Shown here: piece after piece, positions 24,367 to 61,455 of the stretch
How the letters are laid out: each line of letters starts with the position of its first letter
Numbering within the stretch: position 1 is the first letter of the stretch
Origin: Naegleria gruberi
Lineage: Eukaryota
Direction: 5' to 3' (one strand)
DNA length: 64,000 bases
Assembly: GCA_000004985.1 (NCBI GenBank)
Contig: GG738865.1
Notes under the pieces: model-generated
Seen by the model: only the letters and a program-made list of their open reading frames with translations
Told to the model about the DNA's origin: nothing
Databases searched by the model: none
Translations under genes and position numbers: made by a program

Positions 24367-27300
24367 ATGACGAAAGAAGACGAAAAGAAAGAGAAGGAAA
24401 GAATCAAGGAAGAAGAAAGAAAACGAAGGGAAGAAGAGAAAAGACGTAAAGAAGAAGAGAAGGAAGAAGAAAGAAAACGAAAGGAAGAAGAACGTCGTTT
24501 AAAAAAGGAAGAAAAGAAACAAAAAGAAGACCAAAAGAAAAAGGAAAAGGAACTTAAAAAACTCAACAAGAAACTAAATGCTTCATCAAATTCAAGTTTT
24601 GATGGTGCCCCTTCAACACCAACTTCTGAATTAAATGTTTCAATTGGTGATGTAAATGGTGATCCTTTGGGAGGTCTTTCCGAAACTGAACTAAATGAAA
24701 ATATTGAAAAGATGTTAAATTCTATTGGAGCTAAGGAAGATGTGAGAGAAGCAGTTCGTGCCAATCAACCTGCAATGAAATATATTTTATGGAAAACATG
24801 GTATGAACAGTCCAATGATGATAACATTATTCCTTCCATTGAAAAATTGATTGACAGAATGAATACAAGAAAGGATCGTGAGACAATGCAAGATGTTTTG
24901 GTTAAATTACGTAATTCTACAGTTGCCTGGGTTGATTCTTTTATTGATTGTGGTGGTGTGAAGAGTGTAAATGAAATTCTCTCCTCTACAAATTTATTGA
25001 AAAAGACAAAGAATAAGGACGATGATACTCTACAATGGTTATGTTTGAACTGTTTACGTGCTGTTTTAAATACTGAAAAGGGTTTAGCTGCAATTGCACA
25101 TGACAAGACAATCTTTTTCAATATGGCTCTATTGTTGGATTCTGAAAATATTGAAATTAGAATTCAATGTTTATTTATTTTTGCTAATTTTTGCTCTGAG
25201 GACAGTGTTGGAGATGGTTACAAAATTATTCTCTCATCATTGGAGCATTTCAAATTTATTAGACGTGAAAAGCAAATGTTTGAATTTTTAGTGACAAGTT
25301 TAGAAAATCAATTAGATGTCACCTATATGACACACGTTATTTTCTTATTCAATTCACTGTTAACAAATGCTGATCCAACTGATACTATTACACTCGCCAA
25401 TCAATTGAACAGTTTGAAGGTAGTTGAAGTAATCAGAGAACAAATTCAAGGGAAACAAATTGACGATGAAGGTTTCCAAGTTCAATTCCAAATGTTCGTC
25501 GAAGAAATGGAACAAGCTCTCAAAAAGAATGTTGTCCAAATTGATACTAACGATCCACACCAAATTACCGATCATTTGAGAATGAAAATTCAAGGTACTC
25601 AATCTATGGATAGTTTTATGAGAATTTTGAGACATTTGCTCGTATTTACCGATGTTTATGCAGCAAAGTTTACTCTTGAAGAAACTATTGAATTGTGGAA
25701 ACAAGTGGAATTGTCCGTTGAAAGATTAATTCGTGAAAGACAATTTCTTGTTGATAATATTCCTCAAACACCAACATGTGAAACTCCATCCTCTGCTACT
25801 CAACCTCTCCTTCTCAGTCCATTATTGAAGAAGATGAGACATGGTAAATCATTCAAGGACAATACAACTACTGATGGTGAGTCCATAGATGAAACATCGG
25901 TAGAAGCTACATCTGTAGCTGAAGAAGCTCTCCATAAAAGATTACTCGCTCAAGATGAAACCATTCAACAATTACAAGCCGAATTAAAGGAAAAGAAGGA
26001 AGAATTGGAATTACTTAAACAAGCTGGAGAAAGTGTTACTGGTCAAGTTGAAAAGGAAAAGCATGAAAAGGAGATTGAAAGACTTCAAGATAAAATCAAT
26101 ACTATTGAATCAGAGAACCAAACCTATCAAAAGATGATTTCCGTTCTTGAGGATACCAAGGAAAAGCTTAAAGAAAAGGTCAAATCACTTAAATCTAAAC
26201 CTAACGAATCCCCAATTGGAAATAGTCAAGAATTTTTCAAACTGAAAGACAAAGCTCAACAATTAGAACTAACCATCACTAAACTCACTACTGATAATGA
26301 AAATTTGAAGAAGCAACTTGAAGAAAGTAAGAAGAAAATAGAGGAAAGTAAGAAGGAAATTGCAGAAAAAAAGAAAGAAATTGAAGAAAGAAAGAAAGCT
26401 GCTGAATCTGTATCCACTACTGTTGTGACTGCTGTTCCACCACCTCCAGGTTCTACAGGATTCGTCCCACCACCTCCAGGTGATATGACTGGTGTTCCTC
26501 CTCCACCTGGCTCAACAGGATTTGTTCCTCCTCCACCTGGTGGTGTCTCAGATTCTGTACCTCTCCCTCCTGGATCAACTGGGTTTGTTCCACCACCTCC
26601 AGGTGGTTTAACTGGAGGTGTTCCTCCTCCACCAGGCATGACTGGTGTTCCTCCTCCTCCTGGAAGTGGTATACCTCTTCCTCCAGGTGTTGGTGTTCCT
26701 CCTCCTCCTGGAATGACTGGTGTTCCTCCTCCACCAGGTGGTGGTGTTCCTCTTCCTCCAGGTAGTACACCTCCTCCGCCAGGTAGCTTCTTACCTCCTC
26801 CACCAGGATTTATGAAACCTCCAAATGCCATGCCAGCTCTTCCTAAACTTCCAGATTTCAAATCAAATGCCAAACTTCGTGCCTTCCACTTTGGTAATAT
26901 TCAAAATAAGAGTGTTCCAGAAACTATCTTTGCCAAATTCAAAATTATTGATCAAACTCATACAATTTTACGTGATTTGGACACTGCAGAATTTGAGGAA
27001 ACTTTTGGAATTAAGGCAAGTGCAACTCCTGGTACAGGTACAACTGCTGAACCAAAGAAGGAAAAGATTACTCTCATTGATGGAAAGAGATCTCACAATA
27101 TCAGTTTACAATTAGGTTCATTGCGTGGTATTCCTTATCCAAAATTAAAACAAGCCATTCTCGAGTTGGACGAATCTGTAGTGACACCTAATAATATTTC
27201 AACTATCAAGCAAATTGTTCCAACAGAAGAAGAATCACAACTTTGTGTAGATTATGAAGGTGATCGTGATGAACTTCAAGTTGCTGATTTGTTCTTTATT

Positions 27301-28365
27301 GAAATGCACGGAATTCCAAAGATGGTTGATAGATGTGAAGCTTGGGAATTCAAGATGAAATTTGATGAAGTTATTGCTGGTATTGAACCAGTAATTGGCA
27401 ATATTAGAAAGGCATGTGCTGAATTGGAAAGTTGTGATCAATTCCACAAAATTTTGGGTGTTATTTTAACTCTAGGTAACTTTTTAAATAGTAGTAGCAA
27501 GAAGGTAGCTTATGCTTTCAAGATGGCATCACTTGCCAAGTTGAGCGATACCAAGGCAGCTAATGGTAAATCCAGTTTATTGACCTACTTGGTTAAATTT
27601 ATTCAAGAAAAGTATCCAGAATTGGAAACCTTCTATGAAGGGTTGACTTCCGTCAGTGGTGCCACACGTGTTGCTATCGGTTCAATTAAGGATGATATTC
27701 AACAAACTAATACTTCCATCAATAAGCTCAAGACTCTGTATGAACAGTGTGCTAAGGATCCATTGGAAGGGGATAAATTCCCATCTGTTATGGGTTCCTT
27801 CTTGGAGAAGGTTTCAACAAAAATCAAAACAGTTGAAGACAATTATGCCGCTATGATGACAGAATTGAAGAATGTTGCCCTCCTTTACAATGAAGCTGAA
27901 TCTGACATGCAAAAGGAACCTGACAAATTCTTCCAACTCATTGATGGATTTGTCAAGAGTTTCAACGATACTAAGGAAAAGTTGAGAAAGGAAAGAGAAG
28001 CCGAAGAAAAGAAAAAGAAGAAACAATTACCAACTCCAACCAAAGCTGGAGGAATTGGTATCAACACTTCAGGTATCAATAGAGGAACAAGATCTCCATC
28101 CACGAAAACTCCACAATCTCCAGGAGCTGTCTCTCCTAGTGATGAAAGAGGTGGTTTTGATAAGAAGGGTGCACTCTTATTGAAGAATGCTGAACTTTTG
28201 AGAAAGAGAAGAAATACTAAATTGAATAGTGTCGATTTAGATATGGATACAACCTCACCTCCAGCTCATACAAGAACTCCAAGTCAATTGAGTGGTCAAT
28301 TGAGCATGGGAGCTTTTTTAAATAAGCATATTGCTAATAATAATAGTGGTAGCAGCACTCAATAA
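24367..28365 (+). CDS. Diaphanous-related formin (GBD/FH3, coiled coil, FH1, FH2)
   Basis: Real ATG at 24367; the track start at 24202 lies upstream of a better A-rich ATG context. An N-terminal K/E/R charged stretch precedes armadillo-like GBD/FH3 (…LQWLCLNCLRAVLNTEKGLAAIAH…) and a coiled coil. FH1 has about 13 tandem Pro-rich units (GFVPPPPG / GVPPPPG). FH2 carries …ILGVILTLGNFLNSSSKKVAYAFKMASLAKLSDTKAANGKSSLLTYLV…. The C-terminus has a basic DAD-like region. 1333 aa, single exon. Confidence 0.9.
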   Translation: MTKEDEKKEKERIKEEERKRREEEKRRKEEEKEEERKRKEEERRLKKEEKKQKEDQKKKEKELKKLNKKLNASSNSSFDGAPSTPTSELNVSIGDVNGDPLGGLSETELNENIEKMLNSIGAKEDVREAVRANQPAMKYILWKTWYEQSNDDNIIPSIEKLIDRMNTRKDRETMQDVLVKLRNSTVAWVDSFIDCGGVKSVNEILSSTNLLKKTKNKDDDTLQWLCLNCLRAVLNTEKGLAAIAHDKTIFFNMALLLDSENIEIRIQCLFIFANFCSEDSVGDGYKIILSSLEHFKFIRREKQMFEFLVTSLENQLDVTYMTHVIFLFNSLLTNADPTDTITLANQLNSLKVVEVIREQIQGKQIDDEGFQVQFQMFVEEMEQALKKNVVQIDTNDPHQITDHLRMKIQGTQSMDSFMRILRHLLVFTDVYAAKFTLEETIELWKQVELSVERLIRERQFLVDNIPQTPTCETPSSATQPLLLSPLLKKMRHGKSFKDNTTTDGESIDETSVEATSVAEEALHKRLLAQDETIQQLQAELKEKKEELELLKQAGESVTGQVEKEKHEKEIERLQDKINTIESENQTYQKMISVLEDTKEKLKEKVKSLKSKPNESPIGNSQEFFKLKDKAQQLELTITKLTTDNENLKKQLEESKKKIEESKKEIAEKKKEIEERKKAAESVSTTVVTAVPPPPGSTGFVPPPPGDMTGVPPPPGSTGFVPPPPGGVSDSVPLPPGSTGFVPPPPGGLTGGVPPPPGMTGVPPPPGSGIPLPPGVGVPPPPGMTGVPPPPGGGVPLPPGSTPPPPGSFLPPPPGFMKPPNAMPALPKLPDFKSNAKLRAFHFGNIQNKSVPETIFAKFKIIDQTHTILRDLDTAEFEETFGIKASATPGTGTTAEPKKEKITLIDGKRSHNISLQLGSLRGIPYPKLKQAILELDESVVTPNNISTIKQIVPTEEESQLCVDYEGDRDELQVADLFFIEMHGIPKMVDRCEAWEFKMKFDEVIAGIEPVIGNIRKACAELESCDQFHKILGVILTLGNFLNSSSKKVAYAFKMASLAKLSDTKAANGKSSLLTYLVKFIQEKYPELETFYEGLTSVSGATRVAIGSIKDDIQQTNTSINKLKTLYEQCAKDPLEGDKFPSVMGSFLEKVSTKIKTVEDNYAAMMTELKNVALLYNEAESDMQKEPDKFFQLIDGFVKSFNDTKEKLRKEREAEEKKKKKQLPTPTKAGGIGINTSGINRGTRSPSTKTPQSPGAVSPSDERGGFDKKGALLLKNAELLRKRRNTKLNSVDLDMDTTSPPAHTRTPSQLSGQLSMGAFLNKHIANNNSGSSTQ
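26431..26830 (+). repeat. coding tandem repeat: formin FH1 poly-proline units (~13 copies of a 27-33 nt GGTxxxCCTCCTCCACCAGG period)
   Basis: Direct reading shows repeated ccaccacctccagg / cctcctccacctgg units. The overlapping antisense ORFs 26256..26873 and 26453..26803 are the G-rich complement of this repeat and are not genes. Confidence 0.85.
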
Positions 28366-28406
28366 ACTGCTAATATCTTTAAAAATAATAGAAATTATGA
28401 ATATAT

Positions 28407-29524
28407 TTACATGACATTACACTTTTTAGGTTGCTTTTGGACTCTCTTTTTACATTCGTCAATGAATGCTACATCGTATTCCACACAACCTTGCAACAGA
28501 GCTACATTGTCAACTCCGCCAAGTCTCTGTTTTCTAATAAGTTCTTCGAAAATAAGAGTGACATTCTCTCCAAGTTTAGCACTGCTCATCACTATTGAAT
28601 AGTTCAACAATGAATATTCTGAAATAATTGAATTGAATTCAGATTTATACTTCTCAACAGTTTCTGCTCTATTTTCTTTCAATAAATCCATCTTGTTCAT
28701 TACAAACACAATTGGCATGTCATTAACTACATAATCTTTACAACGAATCAACAGGTCAACTTGATAACGAACATCTCTCAAAGAACTTTCATCATTCACT
28801 GCACAAACAATTACAAAACTTTGACCAACTCTCAGGTATTGATCTCTCATTGCAGAGAACTCCTCTGGACCAGCTATTTTCAAAACATTATTCAAATATT
28901 CTATTAAAAACTCAAAAACATACCAGTATCTAGAATATCCAATAATACAGGCTCTCCATCAACCTCAACATGTTTTCTATAAGAATCCTCAATTGTTGGA
29001 TCGTACTCTGATATAAAGACATTTTGAACGTAGTGAATTGTCAATGCAGATTTTCCTAAAATAGCTTAGTTTTAAATTCAAATAATGAAATACTAACCCA
29101 CTCCTCCTTGCCCAAGCACAACCACTTTAACTTCTTCTGATCCCTTACTCGGATCATATTTTGGTCTTTTCCACACTTTAAACTTGATGAAACTTGCCAA
29201 TAGAATTTTCCTCTTCATATCCCCTTTTTTAATCATTTGTGATTTGAGTTGTTCCAACTCCTTTTCAAATGCAGGCATTACAAAATTCTTTTCCAATACT
29301 GTCCACCAAAATGTATTGAAATAGTTCTGCATTTCATTCATACTCGAAATTCTCTTGCTGATTGATTGAAAAATTGCTGCCATTCTAATGTCAGATTTTC
29401 TACTCGCAGGATTATTCAATTCTTTATCAACTCCGAATGATAAAATATGTTGGAAAATTTCATAGGGAAGTGATGAGAATAGCGTTTGATGGTGGTGAGG
29501 CATTTTTTTTCTTTCTTTTTGCAT
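28407..29524 (-). CDS. Ras-subfamily small GTPase with a ~140-aa N-terminal extension bearing an F-box-like motif, 3 exons, CAAX tail
   Basis: Real ATG at 29524. Exon A 29524..29098 carries [18 protein letters not shown] (F-box-like, weak) and ends …[17 protein letters not shown] intron 29097..29056 (42 nt). Exon B 29055..28924 continues the P-loop exactly as GQGGVG|[50 protein letters not shown] intron 28923..28874 (50 nt). Exon C 28873..28407 reads [23 protein letters not shown]…NKMDL…SAK…KKCNVM. The protein is roughly 60% identical to H-Ras across the G domain by eye. The position equivalent to Ras Gln61 is Pro (DTAGPEEF). Confidence 0.85.
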
Positions 29525-29696
29525 GTTCTTGATTTGATGTTTGTTGTTGATTGGTAAATTTGTGTTCGGGAGGAACGATGAACTTTGTTCCTGCTTTGTA
29601 ATACTTTATGAAAACATTATTTTGATCTTATTTGCTTAATTATATCATTGGAAAAGAGTTAAGGATAATAAGGATGTTGTGGTGTGTTGTAAAGTT

Positions 29697-31873: not shown

Positions 31874-34638
31874 TTTGAATTGATTATTTTCTCTCCGTTA
31901 TTATAATTTAAATTGTATTGAACAATTTTTGATGAAGGAGATTCTCTAATATTGATCGCCAACGAGTGTCGTCGTTTGTTGTTTGTACTCGTAGTGGGAG
32001 TTTAAAAATATTTTTTCTAATTGAAAAATTATAAAAGATAAAAATCGTGCGAGCATTTTGAGTCTATCCACAAGTTTGAAAGTAATTGGAGTTGATTTGC
32101 TGCAAGAAAAGGAACAAGAGTAAAGTCGGAAGAGAGAGGAATAGTACTGAACCATTTATTTGAATTTGAATGGAAATTTCTGATTCATAGTGTAGTTGAG
32201 AAGGTAATAGGATGAGGAAATTGGAAGCAATTTTCTATTGTTTTCCTTTTGGTTGTTGTTAGAATTGCCGAATTGAAATAATCAAGCATTAACAATCAAG
32301 ATGAAGTATTGAATTATTTTTTCATCAGCAATGAGATTCTGATTGGAGGAATGATGATATTGACATGCCAAACAGATCACTTTGTAACCTGTGATTGAAT
32401 GCATTACAATAGTTATTTATCATTTAAAAAGTATTAACCCTGGCTGAGGACAATTAACAATGTATTATCAAGTATAATACGTGAATGAAGGTTTGTTACC
32501 CTCACAACACAGCGAGCTACAAAAATATCATAATATTAAATACTAAAGAAGTTCTTGCCAAAACCACTCAATTGGTAGTTCACTTAATTGAAATTATAAT
32601 AAACATCTATCTCTTCCTTTCCAAGAGAGCTATGAAAAACCATCAACATCAAGAAATTGTCCATTACCTCTTTGGTAACTGAGTAAATATTGTAAACTGA
32701 CACTAAGGATTTATTCTCTTGATAGAGTACTCTCTCCATCCAGTTTAAACAGTCATTCGTTACAAATATAGTCCTTAATTCCTAGAAATAAAAGTGGCAA
32801 GTATTGCTGTAACTTTGAGAGCTCAACTGGAAATACATCAACAAAGGTTCTTCATGGTTTTAATTTTACAACATCCAAACAGACCCATTTAATCATGGTT
32901 ATCCCCAACAATGTACACATATCAACACAATCCAAAAACTTGTCATTCATGTCAGTAACTGTTTCCTTATCTCATTGTGCCGACCACCCATCATATGAAG
33001 TTTTTTTCTGTCTAAAAATACAACAAGTAGAACGTTGTGACAATTTTAACAAAAGAGCGTCCATCTAAGCAAAATAACATCTTAGAAAAAAAGCCACGAC
33101 ATCATCTACGGGAACACAATCGTTGGTTAGTTACGAAAGCAACAACAACAGGACATTTAAATGGCTCAGAGCATGTAGGTCTCAATAGCAGAATTGAAAG
33201 ACCAACGGTTAATCAAATCAATTGTGGAGAACATTTGAGTAATAGAGGTTCGTGCGAAGAAGGAAATTCTATTTAGATAGGAGGTATTTCTTCTCTTATT
33301 AAATCCCATTTGGGTTATCTATTACAATCATAGTATAATGCTAAAAAGTAACATGGGTTGTGTTCTGGCAAGCAATGGCTGCATGAGGTTTGTCCTCTAT
33401 GGTTTGAACCTTAAACCACACTTGAACAACCAAATAATATTACGTCAAAAAAACAAGATCATCAACACGTTACATTCTCAAGGTGCACAATCATCATCTT
33501 GATTGCCGTCAGATATCATTCCAAAGTGCATGCAGAAGAGGCATCAATTCAACAACTTTCCAACACGTTTTATCTTTGTAATACAAAAACGGAATATCAC
33601 TGATCTAAAACATCAACCTCTGGTTTAATCTGGGAAAGTCAACTTTGGAAACCTCATGCAAAACCGAGTTTTCTAATGCCAAAAGTTAACAAGAGAGCTC
33701 TACAGGAGAGACATGCAAAATGACTCAACAATTCTGTAGTTTTCTACATTTGACTTTACCTGTAGGTGGTGTGCCTTAGCTTTCATCGGATTCTTAAGGT
33801 CATGTAACCAACGCACAAACTTATACAATCAGTCCCAAGAGCCCATCACACAAGCTAGCTTGATTCACCAAATAACTGGAGGAAGCGACAAACAAATTGT
33901 GAAAAAAATCCAAAACCATTCAAGCACCATTGAAACTATTTTTCGTATCATTTGTATTCGTACAAAGACGAAACATAATTTCGAGAAGTGATTGAATATT
34001 TGGATTTAAAGAGGATTAGGATTTGGATTAGAGACAAGGAAAAAGGGGGAAACCACAAAGAATGAATTGCACTGGTTAATGAATACATTGCTAGTAGCTT
34101 GACCTTCTTTGTGGTCTTCCTCTTTTTTTCTTGTCTCATCGGATGGTAGTAACTGGAGGATATCATGTGTGTACATGTAGTGTTAAAATTTTCTAATTTT
34201 TATTCTATTTCACTAACTCAACTATTTACCTGAAATGGTTTGAAACTTTAATCCAAGCTTTTGACAGAGTATTAACAATATTTAATATGAGTATTGAACG
34301 GTTGTAAAAAATATTGAAATGGAAAAATATCACCAAACAAATATGCGTTGTCCATTTTTAAAAGTAATGATGTTTGACGTTTAAAGTGAAATTTTTTTAC
34401 AGCAGAAGACATTTCACACTCAATAGGCAAGCTGCAGAAGTAGACCAGCTACAACATTTTTACAATATGCTTCTTACTACAGATGAGCTGAAGGAATAAT
34501 ATTCAGACCAGCTACAGCAATTAACCTGCTGATGGGCGATCGTTGATTCGACATTTCTTCACCACACATTTTGCCGGAGAGACATCACGAATCTTCTGTT
34601 AGACAGGTGTAAAAACTGTCAAAAAAAATTAATCAATA

Positions 34639-37340
34639 ATGCCACCACTGGATTTCTTGAGAAGACATCTTCAAAAAGGAGGAAGTAATAGTTCTTCTCC
34701 CGAACCATCAGACCAATCATCACCACAACGAATTTCTTCTATTCGAATTAAACATAAATCCACAATCAATGTACAATTAAAAATTGAAATTGAAACCATT
34801 TCACAACACATAACAATTAATGAACAAAACGTTACTTGCTTTCCTGGTGATTTGATAGAAAGTTTTATCAAGGAGAAGTTGTTAAATTTTCTACCAAATA
34901 ATTCAAACTCTACAACAGATTCCTATCGATCATTTTGTGAAAAGTATGCATTGTTTGTTGTGAGAGAGTTTGGTGATAAAGGTGTTGGAGGTGATTGGAT
35001 TTTTAATTATGGAATGTCATTTGCAGATTTAAATGTGAAAGGAGTTGTAAGTGATCATTGAAAACTTTTTATTAAATTTGAAAACATTAGTGTACAATAG
35101 AATGTGTACTTCAAAAGAAGAAGATACAAGTTCAATTCGGAGTTGACCAACAATTTGCAAAACCAACAGAAATTAATGAATTAAAAACAGTGGAGGAAAT
35201 TTCATCTGAAATTGCAAAATCATTCATGATAAAGAAGGAGTTTATGGCTGATTTTTCTTTGAAGGATAATTTGCAACAATGGTTAATTCCACAATTAACA
35301 CTCCGAGAACAAGGACAACAAGTGAATGACAAATCAAAACTTCAATTATCTAAAAAATATAATTTCACATATGACCAACTATTGGAAAATGATATTAAAC
35401 TAAATGCAGTTAGTTTATCATTAACATATAGTGAAACAAAGGAGAGATTCATGAATGGAAAACTCAATTACAATATTCAAGATAGAACTGAAAGAAATAT
35501 CATTGCTAGATTGGTTGCATTGTCTATTTTAGCAGAGGGACTTGACAGAAAGTACTACAAGAGAGTGGATGATGTTTCTAAATTCGAATCACTCGTACCT
35601 CCTCACTTTTATGCTGAAATTCAAGAAACTCAAAAGATGAAAACCAAAATGAGAAAAAAGTTCATCAAGAATTTACAAAGAAACAAGACCCTTAACATTG
35701 TCGATGCTCAATGTGAATATGTGAAATTGTGTTCACAACACCCATTCTTTAAACTCAACTTGTACAAGGTTGAATTTAAGCAAGAATCAAGTGCAGAGAG
35801 TACCAATCTTAGTGATTTTACTGAAATTCTATTTGGTATTGATGATCAAGGTTTATGTACTATACACTCTACGGACAGATGCATTACTTCGAGTACTCCA
35901 TTTACAAGTATTGTGACTTATTCTGCTACCAAAGACATTTTGAGAATTGTCATCAAACAACCAGAACCAATTCTAGAATCTACAATGGTTATCAAATCAC
36001 CTTTAGCTGAGGAAATTGAACTAGTCATTGCTGGTGCTATTGATTATTCAAATAGAAATATTTTCATGACTCCTCAAGTGAAGGATTTACTGGAGGATGT
36101 TCAAGGATCTGATCGAGTTAAAAAGACATCCTTTGCATTGCCAAGAGACGTACCAACAGATGACATTCAACTCTTACTTTCAGATAGAAATATTGTGGAG
36201 AAGGCACTTCAAGGATTGACAGAATATAATAGACAAGTCAAAACCAAATCAGGTCCTATTCAGGCACTTCTTGTTGAGAAACAAGAAGAAACCTCTGCAC
36301 AAAGAAAGAAAGTTATTGGACAGTATATGGAAGAATTGAGCAAAAAGGATCCAAATGATACTCTCAACAATGAAAACATTAATGTATTCAAAAAACCATT
36401 CGAATATTTGGAAATGTATGACCCTATCAAAAATACTTGTGAACTGATAGAAGAGTCCTACCTCAGATTGATTGAGGTTGAAATGGAGAGGAAAGCTAGA
36501 GAGACTGAAGTTAGCATATTGGAAAATATTTCCAAGGGTCTCATGACAGGAATGTCTGTTAATTCTATTGATTTGGAATCAACCAACTTAGATCAACAAA
36601 AGAATAACTTGTATCCAAAACAAGTTCTCGATATGAAGAGAGAATATGATATGGCATTTAAACAAATTCAAGTCGAGTCTGTTAATATGGAATCATTGAA
36701 GCAAATCAAACAAATGTTTGATCAGCAAGCTCAATATTTGTTACAATATGAAAAGTATTTGCACGACAAGTTTTTGAGACTTAAGGAAATGCCCACAACT
36801 GGAAGTGTTGAATCAACAGCTCCAAGTACCTTCACTTCTCTCAAGAAATTCCCTACTCCACCTGTACCATCATCCAATAACAACTCCTCAAGTGCAAACA
36901 CACCAACCATATCTACCACACCAAAACCAAGTGGTGAAACTCTTTCTCCAACAGCAAATCTTCCAAGAAAGATTTCTTCTAGCACTACACCTCCTGAACC
37001 ATCAACATTAAGAACAGCATCACCAACGAGTCGTAAAACTGTTTTTACTCCAACAAGTGCCAAGTCAACCACAACCGATTCCTCACCTCCAAACAATACT
37101 CAACCAACAAATTCTAATTCATCATCACCAATTGATTCATCTGCTCCATCAACAAATTCCACAACAGCTTCTGATCCATCAGGTAACAATTCATTTAGTG
37201 ATTTGAGATCCAGATTCCTCAAACCTGCAACACCCAACACTCCTCCACCCTCCAATGCACTAGCAGAAGAACGAAAGCAAGCCTTAAAGGGAAGAACATC
37301 AACAGTTCTTGAAGCCCTCTCCAGATTCGAGAGGAAATAA
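34639..37340 (+). CDS. FERM-like domain protein with a ubiquitin-like N-terminus and a long S/T/P-rich C-terminal tail, 2 exons
   Basis: Real ATG at 34639. Exon 1 ends at 35046 (…NVKGVV). A GTAAGT intron 35047..35117 (an in-frame TAG at 35088 forces the acceptor at caaaag|AAGAAG). Exon 2 35118..37340. The FERM F2-like motif is DAQCEYVKLCSQHPFFKLNLYKVEF (compare band-4.1 …YLKIAQDLEMYGVNYF). The last ~190 aa are S/T/P/N low complexity. Confidence 0.5.
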
Positions 37341-37595: not shown

Positions 37596-40500
37596 ATGAA
37601 GCAACTCTCAACACCTGCATCAAAGGCATTCCGATCCTTGCTTGCAACCTCGAGAACATCATCATCAGGGCTTTTCCGAAAGACTGATGTTGTGTTTGGG
37701 AAGGGAGCCAATAGTTATCAACAAGAACAGTTGAATTCATCAAGGATGATTATCGGAAGTTTGCAAGGTGATTTGAAGAGTAGATTCTTCTCTACATCAA
37801 CAATTCATAGAAACGAGAAGAAGGATGATGAAGATAATAATGATAATGATGAAAAGAAAAAGAAGGAAGAAGAAGAAGAACAGAAGGATGTTTCTGAAAA
37901 GGACAAAACACAAGAAATTAACAAAATGTTCGATGACTTTGAATCATCCAGAAAGAGTGATGAAATTAATGATATTGTAGAGGATAGTGCTGAAAGAATT
38001 GAAGAATTATTATCAGATAAGGTAAATGCTGAAGATGTTTCGGATAAAGCAAGTAAATTGCTTTCTCCTGTTAAGCAAACTGAACAATCAATTACAAGCT
38101 TCTTTGCCACTCCAACTCCACCTTTTGTTGAAATTGTCCCATTGTACAAAAAACCAGCATTCCCTGGAACTATTGTTCCTATTTTCATTACTGATACTAA
38201 ATTCATTCAATCCATGTTGGAGAGTGGTTATCATGATAAATTGGTTGGTCTTTTCCTTGTAAAGGATTTGGAAAAACGTGATCAAATGAAGAATGTTGCA
38301 TCTCTCAATGAAATTGAAACAGTAGGTACTCTTGCAAAGGTTACTAGGGTTGTACCATCTAAAGGTGGTGCTTCAGTAGTATTTGCTGCAATCAGAAGAA
38401 TTAAGGTAACTGGAACTGTAAATAATAGTAAGAGACTTACTGCAAATATTGAAGAAGTGACTGCAAATAAGGTTGACAAGAATGATCTATCAATCAAGGC
38501 TCACGTAATGGAAATTTTCCAACAAATTAAGGAATTTTTATCACACATTGATCCTGTTCAAAGAGAACAATTGAATATGGTATTGGAACAATTGGATCAT
38601 ACTGATCCTGCTGAGTTGTCTGACATTGCTGCCATTCTTTGCTCTCATGATCCTGAAACACTTCAAGAAATTTTACAAACTACAGACATTAGACTCAGAT
38701 TAGTCAAATCTCTTGAGCTCTTAAAGTCTGAAGTTGAAACTAAAAAGATTCAAGAAAAGATTCAAAGAAATCTTGAGGAAAAACTCAATAATCAACAAAG
38801 AAAGATGTACCTCACTGAACAACTTAAAATTATCAAGAAGGAACTTGGTCTTGAAAAGGATGCCAAGGAAGAATTAATGAAAAAATTCTCAGGTGCTGCT
38901 GAACAAATCAAGTCTAGAGATAATGTTCCTGAGCTTGTCAAGACTACATTGCAAGATGAATTGAACAAATTCTCCACTTTGGATCCTCATTCAAGTGAAT
39001 ATACCAATGTAAGAAATTATTTGGATTGGATGACATCTCTTCCTTGGGGATTACGTGGTATTGAAAACTTTGATTTGATCAAAGCTTCCAACATTCTCGA
39101 TCATGATCACTATGGACTCAAGAAGGTAAAGGAGAGAATTTTGGAATTTATTGCAGTTGGTAAATTGAAGAATACCACAAAGGGTAAAATTATTCTATTG
39201 ATGGGCCCTCCTGGTGTTGGTAAGACCTCTATTGGTAAATCTATTGCCTCCTCTTTGGGAAGAGAATTCCACAGATTCAGTGTTGGTGGTTTGACTGATG
39301 TCAGTGAAATTAAGGGACACAGAAGAACTTACATTGGATCTATTCCTGGTAAATTAATTAATATCATGAAACATTGCAAGACTAATAATCCTGTAATTAT
39401 GATTGATGAAATTGATAAATTGGGAAGAAGTCATCAAGGTGATCCAGCCAGTGCTCTCCTTGAAGTATTGGATCCAGAACAAAATAATGCCTTTGTTGAC
39501 CACTATTTGGATGTACCATATGATTTGAGTGATGTCTTGTTTGTTTGTACAGCTAACGTTCTCGACAGTATTCCTGGACCACTTCTTGACAGAATGGAAG
39601 TTTTGAGACTCAGTGGCTATATTCTTGAAGAAAAGGTTCATATCACCAGAAACTACCTCCTTCCAAAAAAGATTGAAGAGACTGGACTTTATGTTCAAAA
39701 GGCTAAGGAGAAGAAACCTTTGCTTACTGTTACAAATGGTCTCATTGAAAAACTAATTAGAGAACATTGTAGAGAAGCTGGTGTAAGAAACTTGGAAAAG
39801 CACATTGAACTGATCTGTCGTAAGGTTGCCTATAAAATTGCCAAATCTAATAAGAAACCAGCTCCAATCCATCTCACTGAAAATGATTTGGAAGAATTGG
39901 TAGGAAAGCCAGTATTCACATCAGATAGATACTACCTCACCACTCCTGTAGGTGTTACTATGGGTCTTGCTTGGACATCAATGGGAGGTTCCACATTGTA
40001 TATTGAAACTATTTCAGAAAAACTAGGTCAAGCCGATATCCCAGTTGCAACTACTGACAATGCCACTACAACTGCATCTGTTCCTATGAATGGCTCACTC
40101 AAGTGTACAGGTTCTATGGGAGATGTAATGAAGGAATCATCATCAATTGCTTACTCCTATGCTAAGAATCATCTGTTCAATGTTGATCCAAAGAATGACT
40201 TTTTCAGAAAGACAAATATTCACATGCACATTCCAGAAGGTGGTGTAAATAAGGATGGACCTTCTGCAGGTGTTACAATGGTGACTTCACTTCTTTCTCT
40301 TGCTCTCAATAAGCCTGTAAGACATAACTTGGCAATGACAGGAGAATTAACCATAACTGGTAAGGTTCTTGCTATTGGTGGTGTTAAGGAAAAGGTTATT
40401 GCTGCCAGAAGATCTGGAATTACAACTGTAATTCTGCCTGCTGGAAACAGAAGAGATTGGGATGAATTGGATGAAAATATCAAGAAGGGATTAGAAGTTC

Positions 40501-40619
40501 ACTTTGCTGATTATTATTCAGATGTTTTCAGAATTTCTTTTGGATATGATGAAGCTGAAAATTTGGAAGCTATTGAAAAGGATCGTCAATCACCAAATCT
40601 TATGGATCTTTCTTCTTAA
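37596..40619 (+). CDS. LON: Lon protease homolog, mitochondrial (AAA+ ATP-dependent serine protease)
   Basis: Real ATG at 37596 with an Arg/Ser-rich presequence-like N-terminus. The Lon N domain is present. Walker A is GPPGVGKTS, Walker B is VIMIDEIDK, and the sensor and Arg-finger region is intact. The protease domain has the catalytic Ser in DGPSAGVTM and the Lys in TGKVLAIGGVKEKV. 1007 aa, single exon. Confidence 0.95.
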   Translation: MKQLSTPASKAFRSLLATSRTSSSGLFRKTDVVFGKGANSYQQEQLNSSRMIIGSLQGDLKSRFFSTSTIHRNEKKDDEDNNDNDEKKKKEEEEEQKDVSEKDKTQEINKMFDDFESSRKSDEINDIVEDSAERIEELLSDKVNAEDVSDKASKLLSPVKQTEQSITSFFATPTPPFVEIVPLYKKPAFPGTIVPIFITDTKFIQSMLESGYHDKLVGLFLVKDLEKRDQMKNVASLNEIETVGTLAKVTRVVPSKGGASVVFAAIRRIKVTGTVNNSKRLTANIEEVTANKVDKNDLSIKAHVMEIFQQIKEFLSHIDPVQREQLNMVLEQLDHTDPAELSDIAAILCSHDPETLQEILQTTDIRLRLVKSLELLKSEVETKKIQEKIQRNLEEKLNNQQRKMYLTEQLKIIKKELGLEKDAKEELMKKFSGAAEQIKSRDNVPELVKTTLQDELNKFSTLDPHSSEYTNVRNYLDWMTSLPWGLRGIENFDLIKASNILDHDHYGLKKVKERILEFIAVGKLKNTTKGKIILLMGPPGVGKTSIGKSIASSLGREFHRFSVGGLTDVSEIKGHRRTYIGSIPGKLINIMKHCKTNNPVIMIDEIDKLGRSHQGDPASALLEVLDPEQNNAFVDHYLDVPYDLSDVLFVCTANVLDSIPGPLLDRMEVLRLSGYILEEKVHITRNYLLPKKIEETGLYVQKAKEKKPLLTVTNGLIEKLIREHCREAGVRNLEKHIELICRKVAYKIAKSNKKPAPIHLTENDLEELVGKPVFTSDRYYLTTPVGVTMGLAWTSMGGSTLYIETISEKLGQADIPVATTDNATTTASVPMNGSLKCTGSMGDVMKESSSIAYSYAKNHLFNVDPKNDFFRKTNIHMHIPEGGVNKDGPSAGVTMVTSLLSLALNKPVRHNLAMTGELTITGKVLAIGGVKEKVIAARRSGITTVILPAGNRRDWDELDENIKKGLEVHFADYYSDVFRISFGYDEAENLEAIEKDRQSPNLMDLSS

Positions 40620-40641
40620 GTGTTTTATTGTAAATAATAAA

Positions 40642-42363
40642 TTATTTTTCTTTCGAGAACCTCAGCTTTAAAGTCAATCTACCTTCAGGTCCAAACAGTT
40701 CATAAACCCAATAGTAGAAGAAACCCATCATCTTCATTTTGAATGGTCTATTTACCCAATCCTCATAAGTTATTTCTTTGGAAACTTCAAGCTCACGTTT
40801 AAAGTCTTTCTCAAGCTCAGATGCCAATTTCAAATCATAGTGTTGAATTCCAATCTCTAAATTAGTTTCTAAACTCATTCTATCCAAATTGTAAGAACCC
40901 ATCGATGTGAAAAATCCATCTATTGTCATGTATTTAGCATGAAGGGTCTTTCCAAAATATTCGTATACTTTGATACCTTGCTTTAAATATTCTCCATAAA
41001 TATATGTACTGATATATCTCATGCCAGGAACGTCACTTCTTCCACAAGTTAACAGTCTCACATCACATCCATTCTTCTTTGCAGCAATAAGAGCTTGCTT
41101 TAACCTTTCAGGTGGGTAGAAATATGGTGTTGAAATGTAGCAGTGACTTCTCGAATTATTAATTACATTACAAATATTCTTGTAGAGAGCTGTTTTGTGT
41201 TTTTTAGGATCTGAAAATAATACTTGTGAATAACGTCTTTCTTCATTATTTGTTGGTACTGCTTCTTCTTCAATATTGTCTGTCATATTCCAAGAGTTAT
41301 TTGGATCTTTATCAATGTCAGTCAATAAATCCTCTCTGTTAAATTCCCTAACTATATTCTCTCCTAGTTTTGATTTGGATTGTTCCAAACTGAAAAGTAG
41401 GGATAATGTCAAATAGGATACACTTGGTCCATCAACCATGCAATGCAAATCACGCATGTGACCTATTCCTGATAGCAGTACATTATAATCAGTAGTATTA
41501 GATCTTCCCTTTTCAATATATTCATCCAACTCATCAAGTAAATTTTCATCCAAAGGAACATCCAATACGCCTTGGTCACCTTCATCAGTGAAAATCTCCT
41601 TTTCCAATTGTTCTTCTGTATACAGTGCTCTATCAAATGGATTTGAATATCTATTTTCAATATTCATTCCTCCAATCAAGCCAATTTTATCATCAACAAC
41701 GCAAACTTTCTTGTGATTTCTCAATGTTGGAGCTCTACTAGGATGTCTAAAAAAGAAATTATATAATTTCAAATCCTTATCATTAAATTTCAATATTTTC
41801 CCACCAGCTTCTTTCAATTCTTGAATTAAATCCTCCTTTTCAAAATCAATATGATAACTTCCGAAAGCATCCACTGAAAGAATAACTTCCACTCCTCTAT
41901 GAGCAGCTTGAATTAATTTCACCAAAGTTTTATCTCCAATTTGATCTGTTGAAATTGTATAACAATCAATAAATACTCTCTTCTTTGCTTTATCAATACC
42001 ATTCCATAAGGCTTTGAAATAATCAGCACCATTGAAATAAATTTCCTTTACTCTATTATTCTCGGAAAATCCTCCCAACGATATTGATTGTGCAATGGAC
42101 ATGTACCACGGAAGGGTTAAATCTCTACCAACCTTTTTAGATAATTCTTGTAAATGTGGATAGAATGATGAAATTACTTCATTTGTTGCATTTGCCACTC
42201 CACCATGTTTCCAAATCCAACTCTTTGATTTAAATGTAAATCGATGATAAATTCTCGAATAAAACAATGATGTATAATAGGAGGAAGGAACCGGTGATTT
42301 GGCTATAATAGAAGCAGCAGCAGTAGTAGTAGATGATGCCGCCGATGATACCAATCGATTCAT
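40642..42363 (-). CDS. phospholipase D-superfamily protein with two HKD motifs, probable bacterial-type (PLD-type) cardiolipin synthase, mitochondrial
   Basis: Real ATG at 42363. The N-terminus is Ser/Ala/Thr-rich, like a mitochondrial presequence (MNRLVSSAASSTTTAAASIIAKS). HKD-1 is NHKKVCVVDD and HKD-2 is LHAKYMTIDG (HxKxxxxD twice), with a GSYNLD-type motif following. 573 aa. Confidence 0.75.
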   Translation of the reverse strand: MNRLVSSAASSTTTAAASIIAKSPVPSSYYTSLFYSRIYHRFTFKSKSWIWKHGGVANATNEVISSFYPHLQELSKKVGRDLTLPWYMSIAQSISLGGFSENNRVKEIYFNGADYFKALWNGIDKAKKRVFIDCYTISTDQIGDKTLVKLIQAAHRGVEVILSVDAFGSYHIDFEKEDLIQELKEAGGKILKFNDKDLKLYNFFFRHPSRAPTLRNHKKVCVVDDKIGLIGGMNIENRYSNPFDRALYTEEQLEKEIFTDEGDQGVLDVPLDENLLDELDEYIEKGRSNTTDYNVLLSGIGHMRDLHCMVDGPSVSYLTLSLLFSLEQSKSKLGENIVREFNREDLLTDIDKDPNNSWNMTDNIEEEAVPTNNEERRYSQVLFSDPKKHKTALYKNICNVINNSRSHCYISTPYFYPPERLKQALIAAKKNGCDVRLLTCGRSDVPGMRYISTYIYGEYLKQGIKVYEYFGKTLHAKYMTIDGFFTSMGSYNLDRMSLETNLEIGIQHYDLKLASELEKDFKRELEVSKEITYEDWVNRPFKMKMMGFFYYWVYELFGPEGRLTLKLRFSKEK

Positions 42364-42684: not shown

Positions 42685-43017
42685 TTACAACTTTTTTTCC
42701 ATGTATTCCTCTCTTGCAATATTGGTTTGAGTTGGTTGATTTAACATTCCACCACTTGTAGTAGTTGATTGAGGAACATTTACTCCTGTTGTTGTTGCTG
42801 GCTTGTGTGGAATTCCAACATCTTTAACTCCAAATTGACTTGCCAAGTTTGGATCAGTTTCTGCCAACTTCTTTTGTTGTCTGCTTTCGTAAGTGATATT
42901 GCTGTCAGTGTCATGAGTGAATGGATGTAAGACTTTTTCCTTAATATTGTGGATGGTTCCACTGCCGGTTGTGCTTGTTTTTTGAGGTTGCATTTTGATA
43001 TTTGTTTTTTTTTGCAT
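42685..43017 (-). CDS. small hydrophilic hypothetical protein (110 aa, T/G/Q-rich)
   Basis: Real ATG at 43017. No hydrophobic segments. The composition resembles small stress/LEA-like hydrophilins. Only the ORF itself supports this call. Confidence 0.3.
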   Translation of the reverse strand: MQKKTNIKMQPQKTSTTGSGTIHNIKEKVLHPFTHDTDSNITYESRQQKKLAETDPNLASQFGVKDVGIPHKPATTTGVNVPQSTTTSGGMLNQPTQTNIAREEYMEKKL

Positions 43018-43723: not shown

Positions 43724-44629
43724 ATGACAACTACAAATTATTACAAGACAAGTAATACCTCTAGAAGTGGATCTACCAAACAATCACTTTGTGTTGGAGC
43801 TACTTCAGGAATTGGAAAAGGAATTGCCTTGAAATTGGCCTCTCAAAATATGGATGTTTCAATCATGGGACGAAATGCACAAGCTGGAAAGGAAATTATT
43901 GAGGAAATGAAGAGAATTTTCCCACAGGGCAAATTTGAAATGATTCCAGTTGATGCATCTTCAATGAAGGACATTAAGAGAGTTTGTGAGGAATATAAGA
44001 AGAATCACAATCGATTGGATTATCTAGTTCTCTCGCAGGGAATTTCCAGCATGGCTGGAAGAACAGAGACAAAAGAAGGAATTGATGTCAAACTAGCTCT
44101 CCATTATTATGGAAGAGTCATGTTTGTTAGAGAATTACAAGATTTATTGAGATCAACTCTAACTATTTCTTCAGATGTGAGAGTGTTAACTGTTTTATCG
44201 GCTGGAATTCATGGAACCTATACCAATTTGAATGATCTGGATTTGAAAGAAGATTTCTCATTGAAGAATGCTGCTGATGCTGCTGGTTTTTACAATGACT
44301 TGGCCATGGATCAATTGTCCAGAGAGGAAGGAAATGAAAATATTTCATTCATTCATCAAGCTCCAGGATTTATAGCCACTCAATGGGGTCGTGAATTGCC
44401 AACAGCTGTCAGATGGATTATTCGTGCAGTTCAGAAATTTGCAAGATCTACAGAACAATGTGCAGAATATTTGTTTAAGGGTTTGACAGATGAGTTAACC
44501 AAGAAGGGCTTCCATGTTTTAAATCAATATGGTGAACCAACCTCAGTTACCAAGGATCATAATGAAATGTACAGACAATATATTTGGAAACACACTTTGG
44601 AATTATTGCATAAGGCACTTGGAAAATAA
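43724..44629 (+). CDS. short-chain dehydrogenase/reductase (SDR) family oxidoreductase
   Basis: The track start at 43673 is GTG; the first ATG is at 43724 (MTTTNYYK…). The cofactor motif is VGATSGIGKGIALKLA (TGxxxGIG). It has the SDR length and a YxxxK-region pattern. Confidence 0.8.
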   Translation: MTTTNYYKTSNTSRSGSTKQSLCVGATSGIGKGIALKLASQNMDVSIMGRNAQAGKEIIEEMKRIFPQGKFEMIPVDASSMKDIKRVCEEYKKNHNRLDYLVLSQGISSMAGRTETKEGIDVKLALHYYGRVMFVRELQDLLRSTLTISSDVRVLTVLSAGIHGTYTNLNDLDLKEDFSLKNAADAAGFYNDLAMDQLSREEGNENISFIHQAPGFIATQWGRELPTAVRWIIRAVQKFARSTEQCAEYLFKGLTDELTKKGFHVLNQYGEPTSVTKDHNEMYRQYIWKHTLELLHKALGK

Positions 44630-61384: not shown

Positions 61385-61455
61385 GCATTAGTAGTGTAAC
61401 GGTATCATACCAGCCTTCCAAGCTGGTGACCCGGGTTCGACTCCCGGCTAATGCA
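61385..61455 (+). tRNA. tRNA-Gly(UCC): tRNA-Gly (anticodon UCC)
   Basis: GCATTAGTAGTGTAACGGTATCATACCAGCCTTCCAAGCTGGTGACCCGGGTTCGACTCCCGGCTAATGCA. The 7-bp acceptor stem GCATTAG/CTAATGC pairs perfectly. The D-arm carries an A-box (TAGTGTAACGG). The anticodon loop is CTTCCAA, so TCC. The T-arm carries the B-box GGTTCGACTCC. Discriminator A; no encoded CCA; no intron. Near-identical to canonical eukaryotic tRNA-Gly-TCC. Confidence 0.9.

What the first reader, a model, noticed from the sequence alone, without database searches (positions are those of the whole stretch)
40642..42363. Bacterial-type (PLD, two-HKD) cardiolipin synthase with a mitochondrial presequence, tail-to-tail with mitochondrial Lon
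Opisthokont and plant mitochondria make cardiolipin with a CDP-alcohol phosphatidyltransferase-type synthase. This protein has two HxKxxxxD motifs (NHKKVCVVDD and LHAKYMTIDG) and a Ser/Ala/Thr-rich N-terminus that looks like a targeting peptide. Its stop lies 22 bp from the stop of the Lon protease gene (40619), so two nuclear genes for mitochondrial proteins are convergent with overlapping 3' ends. PLD-type CLS is known in a restricted set of protist lineages, so this constrains the taxonomic origin of the contig.
Basis: partly seen in the sequence, partly recalled or inferred. Interest (0 to 1): 0.5.

Follow-up and report, generated by a model that had tools for sequence, protein, structure and literature searches.

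The report
Naegleria PLD-type mitochondrial cardiolipin synthase gene
This is the Naegleria gruberi gene for the bacterial-style (phospholipase-D-type) cardiolipin synthase that many protists use in their mitochondria; the reading is right, but the gene family and its presence in Naegleria are already in the literature, so it is ordinary.

Summary
An intron-less 573-aa ORF lies at 40642-42363 (-). It has two extended HKD motifs, at H217/K219/D224 and H475/K477/D482. Its stop is 22 bp from the stop of a 1007-aa Lon protease gene.

The window is Naegleria gruberi nuclear DNA: Lon is identical to XP_002677722.1.

The protein belongs to the cardiolipin-synthase branch of the PLD superfamily. It scores 184 bits against TIGR04265, 163 bits against the ClsB model and 106 bits against E. 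coli ClsB. It scores only 31-37 bits against PssA. It has no transmembrane helix, so it is ClsB-like rather than ClsA-like.

Orthologues occur in N. lovaniensis, Willaertia and Acrasis. The nearest named relatives beyond these are other protist proteins.

The N-terminus has no acidic residue for 61 positions, which fits mitochondrial import. No trained predictor was available. Only residues 27-55 are conserved, and they are modelled as part of the fold.

The Lon pairing is kept in Naegleria and lost in Willaertia.

Tian et al. 2012 already list a Naegleria gruberi CLS_pld (XP_002677818.1). Homologues in Trypanosoma, Plasmodium and Acanthamoeba have been characterised. Verdict: correct, already known, low interest.

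The parts
40642..42363 (-). Complete intron-less CDS (573 aa plus TAA) of the PLD-type cardiolipin synthase homologue (CLS_pld, ClsB-like architecture)
   Evidence: ORF listing and translation. Pfam PLDc_2 x2 at E=4.6e-44. NCBIfam best hits are cardiolipin synthase models. The AF2 model gives a bilobed PLD fold with pTM 0.76.
42286..42363 (-). Residues 1-26: Ser/Ala/Thr-rich, acid-free, lineage-variable N-terminal extension, the candidate cleavable part of a mitochondrial presequence
   Evidence: Composition. pLDDT below 50 for residues 1-31. The segment is similar in N. lovaniensis, much shorter in the Naegleria-like contig (7 residues), and absent in Willaertia, which has no upstream in-frame ATG.
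42199..42285 (-). Residues 27-55: conserved basic/aromatic segment SSYYTSLFYSRIYHRFTFKSKSWIWKHGG, a candidate targeting and/or membrane-interface helix
   Evidence: Conserved in all four heterolobosean orthologues. It has no acidic residues and 5 K/R, with a maximum helical hydrophobic moment of 0.41. It is modelled as helix 37-52 with pLDDT 67-93.
41662..41715 (-). HKD motif 1, extended form H217-x-K219-x4-D224-x6-G231-G232-x-N234
   Evidence: These columns are invariant in alignment A1 and in the 43-sequence alignment.
41461..41646 (-). Residues 240-301: acidic insertion after HKD motif 1, about 54 residues longer than in bacterial Cls, probably a disordered loop
   Evidence: The segment between N234 and R304 is 69 residues (18 D/E), against 14-16 in bacterial Cls. 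pLDDT is below 50. The insertion is also present in Willaertia, Acrasis and P0123.
40888..40941 (-). HKD motif 2, extended form H475-x-K477-x4-D482-x6-G489-S490-x-N492
   Evidence: Invariant columns. This is the best Pfam PLDc_2 stretch, residues 397-523.
40620..40641 (.). 22-bp spacer between the two convergent stop codons, with an AATAAA hexamer on each strand
   Evidence: Read directly from the sequence.
37596..40619 (+). Lon protease gene (1007 aa), the convergent neighbour. It has a basic, acid-free N-terminus of 30 residues and ends in ...MDLSS, not the peroxisomal SKL tripeptide
   Evidence: Pfam domains. The sequence is identical to N. gruberi XP_002677722.1/EFC44978.1. N-terminal composition.

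Best explanation
The ORF is the nuclear gene of Naegleria gruberi for a phospholipase-D-superfamily cardiolipin synthase (CLS_pld).

Proposed mechanism:

- The protein is translated in the cytosol and imported into the mitochondrion through its acid-free, basic N-terminal region.
- It has no transmembrane helix, so, like E. coli ClsB, it probably sits peripherally on the inner membrane. The conserved basic/aromatic N-terminal helix may help hold it there.
- The two HKD half-sites come together in one bilobed active site.
- One histidine attacks the phosphodiester of a phosphatidyl donor, most likely phosphatidylglycerol, to form a phosphatidyl-enzyme intermediate.
- The phosphatidyl group is then passed to the free glycerol hydroxyl of a second phosphatidylglycerol, giving cardiolipin plus glycerol. 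No CDP-diacylglycerol is used.

What is shown and what is inferred:

- Shown here: the gene structure, the catalytic motifs, family membership, the fold, the absence of a transmembrane segment, and orthology across Heterolobosea.
- Inferred: the substrates, the mitochondrial location, and any processing of the N-terminus.

The tail-to-tail pairing with Lon is a Naegleria-specific piece of gene order in a compact genome. It is not a functional unit.
For: - Family: NCBIfam ranks cardiolipin synthase models first. TIGR04265 scores 183.6 bits (E=6.6e-54), ClsB PRK11263 163.1 bits and PRK12452 153.5 bits. DrmC scores 47.5 bits, NucT 42 bits and PssA 36.7 bits.
- Pairwise BLASTP: E. coli ClsB 106 bits (5e-29), ClsA 80 bits, ClsC 42 bits, PssA 31 bits.
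- Catalytic residues: all residues of both extended HKD motifs are invariant against bacterial and eukaryotic homologues. They match the residue set described for P. falciparum Cls.
- Fold: AF2 gives a confident two-lobed PLD fold with pTM 0.76. 239 residues have pLDDT of 90 or more. Foldseek probability is 1.00 against PLD1/2, Streptomyces PLD and PssA.
- Membrane anchoring: no hydrophobic segment reaches transmembrane level. The maximum 19-residue Kyte-Doolittle mean is 1.26, against 2.4-2.8 in ClsA-type controls. Pfam finds no PLDc_N domain.
- Conservation: orthologues are 68-81% identical in N. lovaniensis, a Naegleria-like metagenomic contig and Willaertia magna.
- Wider relatives: in an exhaustive search the next best named hits are eukaryotic. 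They are Acrasis kona 'cardiolipin synthase YwiE', two dictyostelids, Percolomonas and a foraminifer, interleaved with bacterial ClsB.
- Tree: a heterolobosean clade has 76% NJ bootstrap support.
- N-terminus: there is no acidic residue before E62, the most extreme value of 33 ORFs in the window. The same acid-free, basic character holds in all four orthologues.
- Literature: N. gruberi is scored CLS_pld+ / CLS_cap- with accession XP_002677818.1 (PMC3378450). PLD-type CLS is mitochondrial and makes cardiolipin in Plasmodium (PMC13175493 and PMC13330675). It has been localised to mitochondria in Acanthamoeba (PMC13632651).
Against: - The scores fall below NCBI's equivalog cut-offs (183.6 against 290 for TIGR04265; 163.1 against 281 for ClsB), so it is not a strict bacterial ClsA or ClsB equivalog.
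- No enzymatic, localisation or expression data for the Naegleria protein were found.
- No trained presequence predictor was available.
- The first 30 residues carry only two positive charges.
- The conserved basic segment is modelled as part of the folded protein, so a classical cleaved presequence is not established.
- PfCls, a verified mitochondrial homologue, has no recognisable MTS, so import signals in this family can be atypical.
- The exact 573-aa sequence is not in the protein collection. I could not retrieve XP_002677818.1 to prove that it is this locus.
Confidence: 0.85

Rival explanations
1. It is a Cls-family enzyme whose main reaction is not PG + PG -> cardiolipin. It could be a ClsC-like PE + PG transfer, a ClsB-like headgroup exchange that makes phosphatidylglycerol, or a bifunctional CL/PE synthase. 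Its cellular role would then differ from, or be broader than, simple cardiolipin synthesis.
For: The closest E. coli paralogue is ClsB rather than ClsA. It fails the equivalog cut-offs of every bacterial Cls model. It carries a lineage-specific acidic insertion next to HKD motif 1. From established knowledge, not tested here, substrate choice in this family cannot be read from sequence.
Against: N. gruberli is reported to lack a CAP-type CLS, which leaves this as the only candidate cardiolipin synthase (PMC3378450; PMC5573378 Table 2). The characterised eukaryotic homologues in Plasmodium are needed for cardiolipin. The same is reported for T. brucei, as cited in the reviews read.
Confidence: 0.09
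2. It is the PLD-type phosphatidylglycerophosphate synthase (Pgs_pld, PGS1-like) of Naegleria, the step before cardiolipin synthesis, and not the cardiolipin synthase.
For: N. gruberi is reported to have both a Pgs_pld and a Cls_pld (PMC5573378 Table 2). Both would be two-HKD proteins expected in mitochondria. Pfam PLDc_2 alone does not separate them.
Against: The PGS1 type belongs with the PssA branch of the superfamily (established knowledge). This protein scores 184 and 163 bits against Cls models but only 36.7 bits against the PssA model, over a 49-residue stretch. It scores 106 bits against ClsB and 31 bits against E. coli PssA. In the tree, PssA sits on a very long branch outside all Cls-like sequences. 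The named nearest homologues are called cardiolipin synthase or ClsB. No authentic eukaryotic PGS1 sequence was available for a direct comparison.
Confidence: 0.03
3. It is a hydrolytic, secreted or vacuolar phospholipase D, or a PLD-fold nuclease, or a bacterial contaminant or recent transfer that is not part of mitochondrial biology.
For: Dictyostelid homologues are annotated merely as 'phospholipase D'. The structure search hits PLD1/2, PLD3/4 and Streptomyces PLD with similar scores. Weak matches to NucT and DrmC exist.
Against: There is no signal-peptide-like or transmembrane hydrophobic segment and no PX/PH or other accessory domain. The Cls models outscore the nuclease models by more than 130 bits. 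The gene has the same ~34% G+C as its flanks. It sits between eukaryotic genes on a contig whose Lon is identical to N. gruberi. It has orthologues, in part syntenic, in three heterolobosean genera.
Confidence: 0.02

Closest known systems
Naegleria gruberi CLS_pld as listed by Tian, Feng & Wen 2012 (XP_002677818.1; PMC3378450)
   Same: Same species, same family call (CLS_pld present, CLS_cap absent). Its accession lies 96 numbers from that of the adjacent Lon (XP_002677722.1), which is consistent with the same 820-kb scaffold.
   Different: Identity of the locus is not proven. The exact 573-aa translation is absent from the protein collection, and no ~100% N. gruberi hit appeared. The deposited gene model may therefore differ, or may not be in the collection.
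E. coli ClsB (YbhO, NP_415310.1)
   Same: It is the best-scoring E. coli paralogue (106 bits, 24% identity across both lobes). It has both HKD motifs and no N-terminal transmembrane helices.
   Different: The Naegleria protein has a ~95-residue longer N-terminus and a ~54-residue acidic insertion after HKD motif 1. It also has a longer inter-lobe linker (100 against 74 residues). It scores 163 bits, below the ClsB equivalog cut-off of 281.
E. coli ClsA and bacterial ClsA-type synthases (TIGR04265, with PF13396 PLDc_N)
   Same: TIGR04265 is the highest-scoring NCBIfam model (183.6 bits). The catalytic signature is the same.
   Different: The two N-terminal transmembrane helices (PLDc_N) are lacking. 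The score is below the cut-off of 290.
Plasmodium Cls (PfCls/PbCls; PMC13175493, PMC13330675) and T. brucei CLS (Serricchio & Butikofer 2012, not readable here)
   Same: They are eukaryotic PLD-type cardiolipin synthases acting in mitochondria. PfCls has the same set of extended HKD residues, no clear transmembrane helix, and an unstructured loop just after HKD motif 1, at residues 222-279.
   Different: No sequence of these proteins could be fetched for a direct comparison. TbCLS is described as having transmembrane domains, and the Naegleria protein has none. PfCls has no recognisable MTS, whereas the Naegleria protein has a long acid-free basic N-terminus.
Heterolobosean and amoebozoan homologues: Acrasis kona KAL0484117.1 'cardiolipin synthase YwiE', Willaertia magna, N. 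lovaniensis, Heterostelium XP_020427758.1, Tieghemostelium KYQ94296.1
   Same: They are the closest named relatives in the exhaustive search. Naegleria, Willaertia and Acrasis share the insertion after HKD motif 1.
   Different: Dictyostelids, Percolomonas and the foraminifer lack that insertion. They have very long inter-lobe linkers instead, 158-276 residues.

Membership tests
PLD superfamily, two-HKD enzymes | Two copies of H-x-K-x4-D with the extended G-(G/S)-x-N tail, in two homologous lobes forming one fold | tested here: met
   H217/K219/D224/G231/G232/N234 and H475/K477/D482/G489/S490/N492. Pfam PLDc_2 x2 at E=4.6e-44. AF2 bilobed model with Foldseek probability 1.00 to PLDs.
Cardiolipin synthase branch (Cls_pld: ClsA/ClsB/ClsC-like) | Cls profiles and proteins score better than other PLD subfamilies (PssA/PGS1, nucleases, DrmC, hydrolytic PLD) | tested here: met
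   TIGR04265 183.6, ClsB 163.1 and PRK12452 153.5 bits, against DrmC 47.5, NucT 42.2 and PssA 36.7 bits. BLASTP gives ClsB 106 and ClsA 80 bits, against PssA 31 bits.
Bacterial ClsA / ClsB equivalogs (NCBIfam) | Whole-protein score at or above the curated equivalog cut-off | tested here: not met
   183.6 is below 290 (TIGR04265), 163.1 is below 281 (ClsB) and 153.5 is below 787 (PRK12452). The matches are split in two by the eukaryote-specific insertions. It is a family member, not an equivalog of a bacterial paralogue.
ClsA-type cardiolipin synthase | Two N-terminal transmembrane helices (PF13396 PLDc_N) | tested here: not met
   No PF13396 hit. The maximum 19-residue hydropathy is 1.26, against 2.4-2.8 in ClsA-type controls.
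Eukaryotic CLS_pld (Tian et al. 2012 'clade E') | Nuclear-encoded in a mitochondriate protist lineage that lacks CLS_cap, and grouping with other eukaryotic CLS_pld | tested here: inconclusive
   The nuclear N. gruberi context is shown. The heterolobosean clade has 76% bootstrap support, and the nearest named relatives are eukaryotic. In my rough NJ tree, however, bacterial ClsB-like sequences fall between the heterolobosean group and the other eukaryotes. Absence of CLS_cap is taken from the literature.
Eukaryotic CLS_pld | Mitochondrial location / import signal | tested here: inconclusive
   A 61-residue acid-free N-terminus with 7 K/R is the extreme of 33 ORFs in the window, and its character is kept in the orthologues. 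No TargetP or MitoFates was available. Residues 1-26 are not conserved, and residues 37-93 are modelled as folded.
Cardiolipin synthase (function) | Catalyses formation of cardiolipin from phosphatidylglycerol | not testable with these tools
   Needs a biochemical assay or complementation. Homologues have been tested in Plasmodium.
PLD-type PGP synthase (PGS1 / Pgs_pld) and PssA branch | Closer to the PssA/PGS1 subfamily than to Cls | tested here: not met
   The PssA model scores 36.7 bits over a 49-residue stretch. E. coli PssA scores 31 bits. PssA is a distant outgroup in the tree. No eukaryotic PGS1 sequence was available.

The most novel reading that the evidence does not exclude
The heterolobosean enzyme may be a distinct structural variant of eukaryotic CLS_pld. 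It would be a ClsB-like peripheral protein without a transmembrane helix. Its conserved basic/aromatic N-terminal helix (residues 27-55) would serve both as an uncleaved import signal and as the membrane anchor. Its lineage-specific ~54-residue acidic loop beside HKD motif 1 would regulate access to the active site or bind partners. In addition, the 22-bp convergent spacer, with an AATAAA on each strand, would force the CLS and Lon mRNAs to overlap antisense. That would couple the expression of two inner-membrane homeostasis genes in Naegleria.
Probability: 0.12. Interest if true: 0.3.

Novelty: already known. Interest (0 to 1): 0.15.

Why it matters
It matters little beyond annotation. The locus confirms that Naegleria, like kinetoplastids, alveolates and amoebozoans, relies on the bacterial PLD-type route to cardiolipin rather than the CDP-alcohol route of animals, fungi and plants. 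That distribution has been discussed since 2012 in the debate on the origin of mitochondrial lipid synthesis. Humans lack this enzyme type, so the orthologue in the pathogen N. fowleri could in principle be a selective drug target, as is argued for Plasmodium. The small new points are descriptive. They are the absence of a transmembrane helix, the heterolobosean acidic insertion, the conserved N-terminal helix, and the Lon pairing restricted to Naegleria.

Tried and rejected
- Exact look-up of the 573-aa protein found nothing in the collection, so the deposited N. gruberi model could not be matched.
- A look-up of the Lon gene position found nothing on record.
- A literature search for XP_002677818 and two guessed accessions (EFC45074, D2VE72) gave 0 papers.
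- Serricchio & Butikofer 2012 (PMC3341011) is not held, so TbCLS features are cited second-hand.
- The afdb50 fold library was unavailable.
- The PDB sequence search gave only a weak generic PLD match (7e0m, E=0.002). The Foldseek PDB search gave only generic PLD-superfamily matches with no solved Cls, so structure does not discriminate the subfamily.
- The first tree script timed out. The replacement is a rough NJ tree on 385 columns with a Kimura correction. Its deep nodes are unresolved and should not be over-read.
- The word-index homology search made bacteria look like the nearest relatives after Heterolobosea (contigs checked). The exhaustive search corrected this.
- The supplement of PMC5573378 gave no accession for the N. 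gruberi Pgs_pld or Cls_pld.
- Operon-like or functional coupling with Lon was rejected, because Willaertia has a different downstream neighbour.
- tRNA and Rfam scans found nothing related to the locus.
Full report
**Observation.** The minus-strand ORF at 40642-42363 is real and complete. It encodes 573 codons, starts with ATG, has an in-frame stop six codons upstream, and ends in TAA. Each continues into the longer H-x-K-x4-D-x6-G-(G/S)-x-N signature. Pfam finds two PLDc_2 domains (E=4.6e-44) and the PLDc active-site motif (1e-07), so chance is excluded.

The plus-strand neighbour at 37596-40619 is a 1007-aa Lon protease with all four Lon domains. Its TAA ends at 40619, and the CLS TAA is at 40642-40644. 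That leaves a 22-bp spacer.

**Source.** The Lon protein is identical over its full length to Naegleria gruberi XP_002677722.1/EFC44978.1, on an 820-kb scaffold. G+C is a flat 31-39% across the window, and the CLS gene does not stand out.

**Family.** NCBIfam ranks three cardiolipin synthase models first: TIGR04265 at 183.6 bits, ClsB at 163.1 and PRK12452 at 153.5. DISARM DrmC (47.5), NucT (42.2) and PssA (36.7) are far behind. All three top scores are below the curated equivalog cut-offs, and the matches are split into two stretches. This is a diverged member of the family, not an equivalog of one bacterial paralogue.

I fetched the E. coli K-12 genes. Against them, BLASTP gives ClsB 106 bits (5e-29), ClsA 80 bits, ClsC 42 bits and PssA 31 bits.

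This ranking matters because N. gruberi is reported to possess both a PLD-type PGP synthase and a PLD-type CLS (PMC5573378, Table 2). The PGS1 type belongs with PssA, which is an established relationship that I did not test here with an authentic PGS1. The 130-bit gap therefore argues that this gene is the CLS and not the PGP synthase.

**Architecture.** No 19-residue window reaches transmembrane hydropathy. The maximum is 1.26, in a helix of the core. ClsA-type controls in the same run reach 2.4-2.8 and carry PF13396. The protein is thus ClsB-like.

The AlphaFold2 model was built from a 13-sequence alignment and has pTM 0.76 and mean pLDDT 75. It shows the two alpha/beta lobes with high confidence. 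Low confidence is confined to residues 1-31, 240-301, 348-373 and 559-573. Foldseek against the PDB returns only generic PLD-superfamily structures at similar scores: human PLD1/2, Streptomyces PLD, E. coli PssA and PLD3/4. No cardiolipin synthase structure appears, so the fold confirms the superfamily but not the subfamily.

Relative to bacterial Cls, the protein has four differences:
- a longer N-terminus;
- a ~54-residue acidic insertion after HKD motif 1 (69 residues between N234 and R304 against 14-16, with 18 D/E);
- a somewhat longer inter-lobe linker;
- a short C-terminal tail.

The insertion is shared with N. lovaniensis, the Naegleria-like contig, Willaertia, Acrasis and metagenomic P0123. 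It is absent from dictyostelid, Percolomonas and foraminiferal homologues, which have 158-276-residue linkers instead. PfCls is described as having an unstructured loop at the equivalent place.

**Relatives.** The word-index search found orthologues in a Naegleria-like ENA contig (81%), N. lovaniensis (79%) and Willaertia magna (68%). After these came ~30%-identical proteins without a PLDc_N domain. Two of those that I checked lie on bacterial contigs.

The exhaustive HMMER search changed that picture. Between the orthologues and the bacterial ClsB-like proteins lie many 500-700-aa proteins. Those with names are as follows:
- Acrasis kona 'cardiolipin synthase YwiE';
- Tieghemostelium and Heterostelium 'phospholipase D';
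- Percolomonas;
- the foraminifer Nonionella;
- a Planctomycetota ClsB.

My NJ tree uses 43 sequences, 385 columns and 200 bootstraps. It groups Naegleria, Willaertia, Acrasis and P0123-P0125 at 76%, and puts PssA on a long outgroup branch. It does not resolve the deep order of eukaryotic and bacterial ClsB-like groups. I therefore cannot confirm or deny the eukaryotic monophyly reported by Tian et al.

**Targeting.** The first acidic residue is E62. Among the 33 non-overlapping ORFs of at least 150 aa in the window, this is the largest value. The median is about 10, and Lon has 31. The region holds 7 K/R, 2 H and 26 S/T/A. All four orthologues have acid-free N-termini of 35-61 residues with 7-9 K/R.

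Only the segment SSYYTSLFYSRIYHRFTFKSKSWIWKHGG (residues 27-55) is conserved, however. Willaertia begins at its equivalent and has no upstream in-frame ATG. The model places residues 37-93 in confident helices on the core.

My reading is that residues 1-26 are a variable, possibly cleaved leader, and that the conserved basic/aromatic helix carries much of the import and/or membrane-binding information. This is inference, because no trained predictor was available.

Support from homologues comes from three sources:
- PLD-type CLS is mitochondrial in Plasmodium.
- It is mitochondrial in Acanthamoeba.
- It is mitochondrial in T. brucei, as cited.

**Gene order.** The CLS-Lon tail-to-tail pair is kept in N. 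lovaniensis (98-bp spacer) and in the Naegleria-like contig (7 bp). In Willaertia the downstream gene is an unrelated 688-aa protein. In the window, 22 bp is the shortest of the eight convergent spacers; the others are 86-954 bp. Each strand of the spacer carries an AATAAA. If such signals are used, both mRNAs must end inside the other gene. That is plausible but unmeasured. Because the arrangement is lost in the next genus, I treat it as local synteny in a compact genome and not as a functional module.

**Known or new.** Tian, Feng & Wen (2012) score N. gruberi as CLS_pld-positive and give XP_002677818.1. Ye et al. (2017) repeat the call. The wider distribution and its evolutionary meaning are discussed. 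I could not fetch that accession, and the exact translation is not in the protein collection. Identity of the locus is therefore very likely but not proven.

The finding is correct and already known. The only additions are descriptive details: the ClsB-like architecture, the heterolobosean insertion, the conserved N-terminal helix, and synteny limited to Naegleria.

**Scores.** Interest is 0.15. Novelty is 'already known'. Confidence in the main explanation is 0.85. This breaks down as family membership about 0.97, cardiolipin synthesis about 0.85 and mitochondrial location about 0.85.

Noticed in passing
window 41461-41646 (-), residues 240-301; also L001, L002, L003 orthologues: There is a ~54-residue acidic insertion immediately after HKD motif 1, with 18 D/E in the 69 residues between N234 and R304. 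It is shared by Naegleria, Willaertia, Acrasis and metagenomic P0123. It is absent from bacterial Cls and from dictyostelid, Percolomonas and foraminifer homologues, which have very long inter-lobe linkers instead. It is modelled as disordered. PfCls is reported to have a loop at the same site.
   Followed up: partly
window 42199-42285 (-), residues 27-55: A basic/aromatic segment (SYYxSLFYSRIxHRFxFKSKSWIWKHGG) is conserved in all four heterolobosean orthologues and is modelled as a helix packed on the core. The Ser/Ala/Thr-rich residues 1-26 are lineage-specific: Willaertia starts directly at this segment.
   Followed up: partly
window 40620-40641: The 22-bp spacer between the convergent stop codons has an AATAAA hexamer on each strand. 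It is the shortest of the eight convergent spacers among large ORFs in the window. The equivalent spacer is 7 bp in the Naegleria-like metagenomic contig L003 and 98 bp in N. lovaniensis L001.
   Followed up: partly
protein collection (no coordinates): The adjacent Lon protein is in the protein collection as N. gruberi XP_002677722.1. The 573-aa CLS translation is not, and no ~100%-identical N. gruberi entry appeared in the homology search. The deposited gene model (XP_002677818.1 according to Tian et al.) may differ from the simple ORF, or may be missing from the collection.
   Followed up: partly
window 61385-61455 (+): A tRNA-Gly (anticodon UCC) is the only RNA gene detected in the window by ARAGORN and Rfam.
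   Followed up: no
window 31874-35225 and 28366-29696: These are stretches of 3.3 kb and 1.3 kb without any ATG-started ORF of at least 150 aa, in an otherwise gene-dense window. They may hold intron-split or short genes. G+C is slightly raised (0.39) at 26001-28000, inside the 1387-aa ORF at 24202-28365.
   Followed up: no
NJ tree of homologues: The Percolomonas (Heterolobosea) homologue P0135 grouped with P0132 among the non-heterolobosean eukaryotic sequences, not with Naegleria and Acrasis. This could reflect paralogy, contamination of the transcriptome, or simply the weak resolution of the tree.
   Followed up: no
window 43724-44629 (+) and 42685-43017 (-): Upstream of the CLS gene lie a short-chain dehydrogenase (adh_short, E=1.2e-16) and a 110-aa ORF with no Pfam match. 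In N. lovaniensis and Willaertia the upstream neighbourhood instead contains a Sin3-like gene, so the upstream synteny differs in N. gruberi.
   Followed up: no
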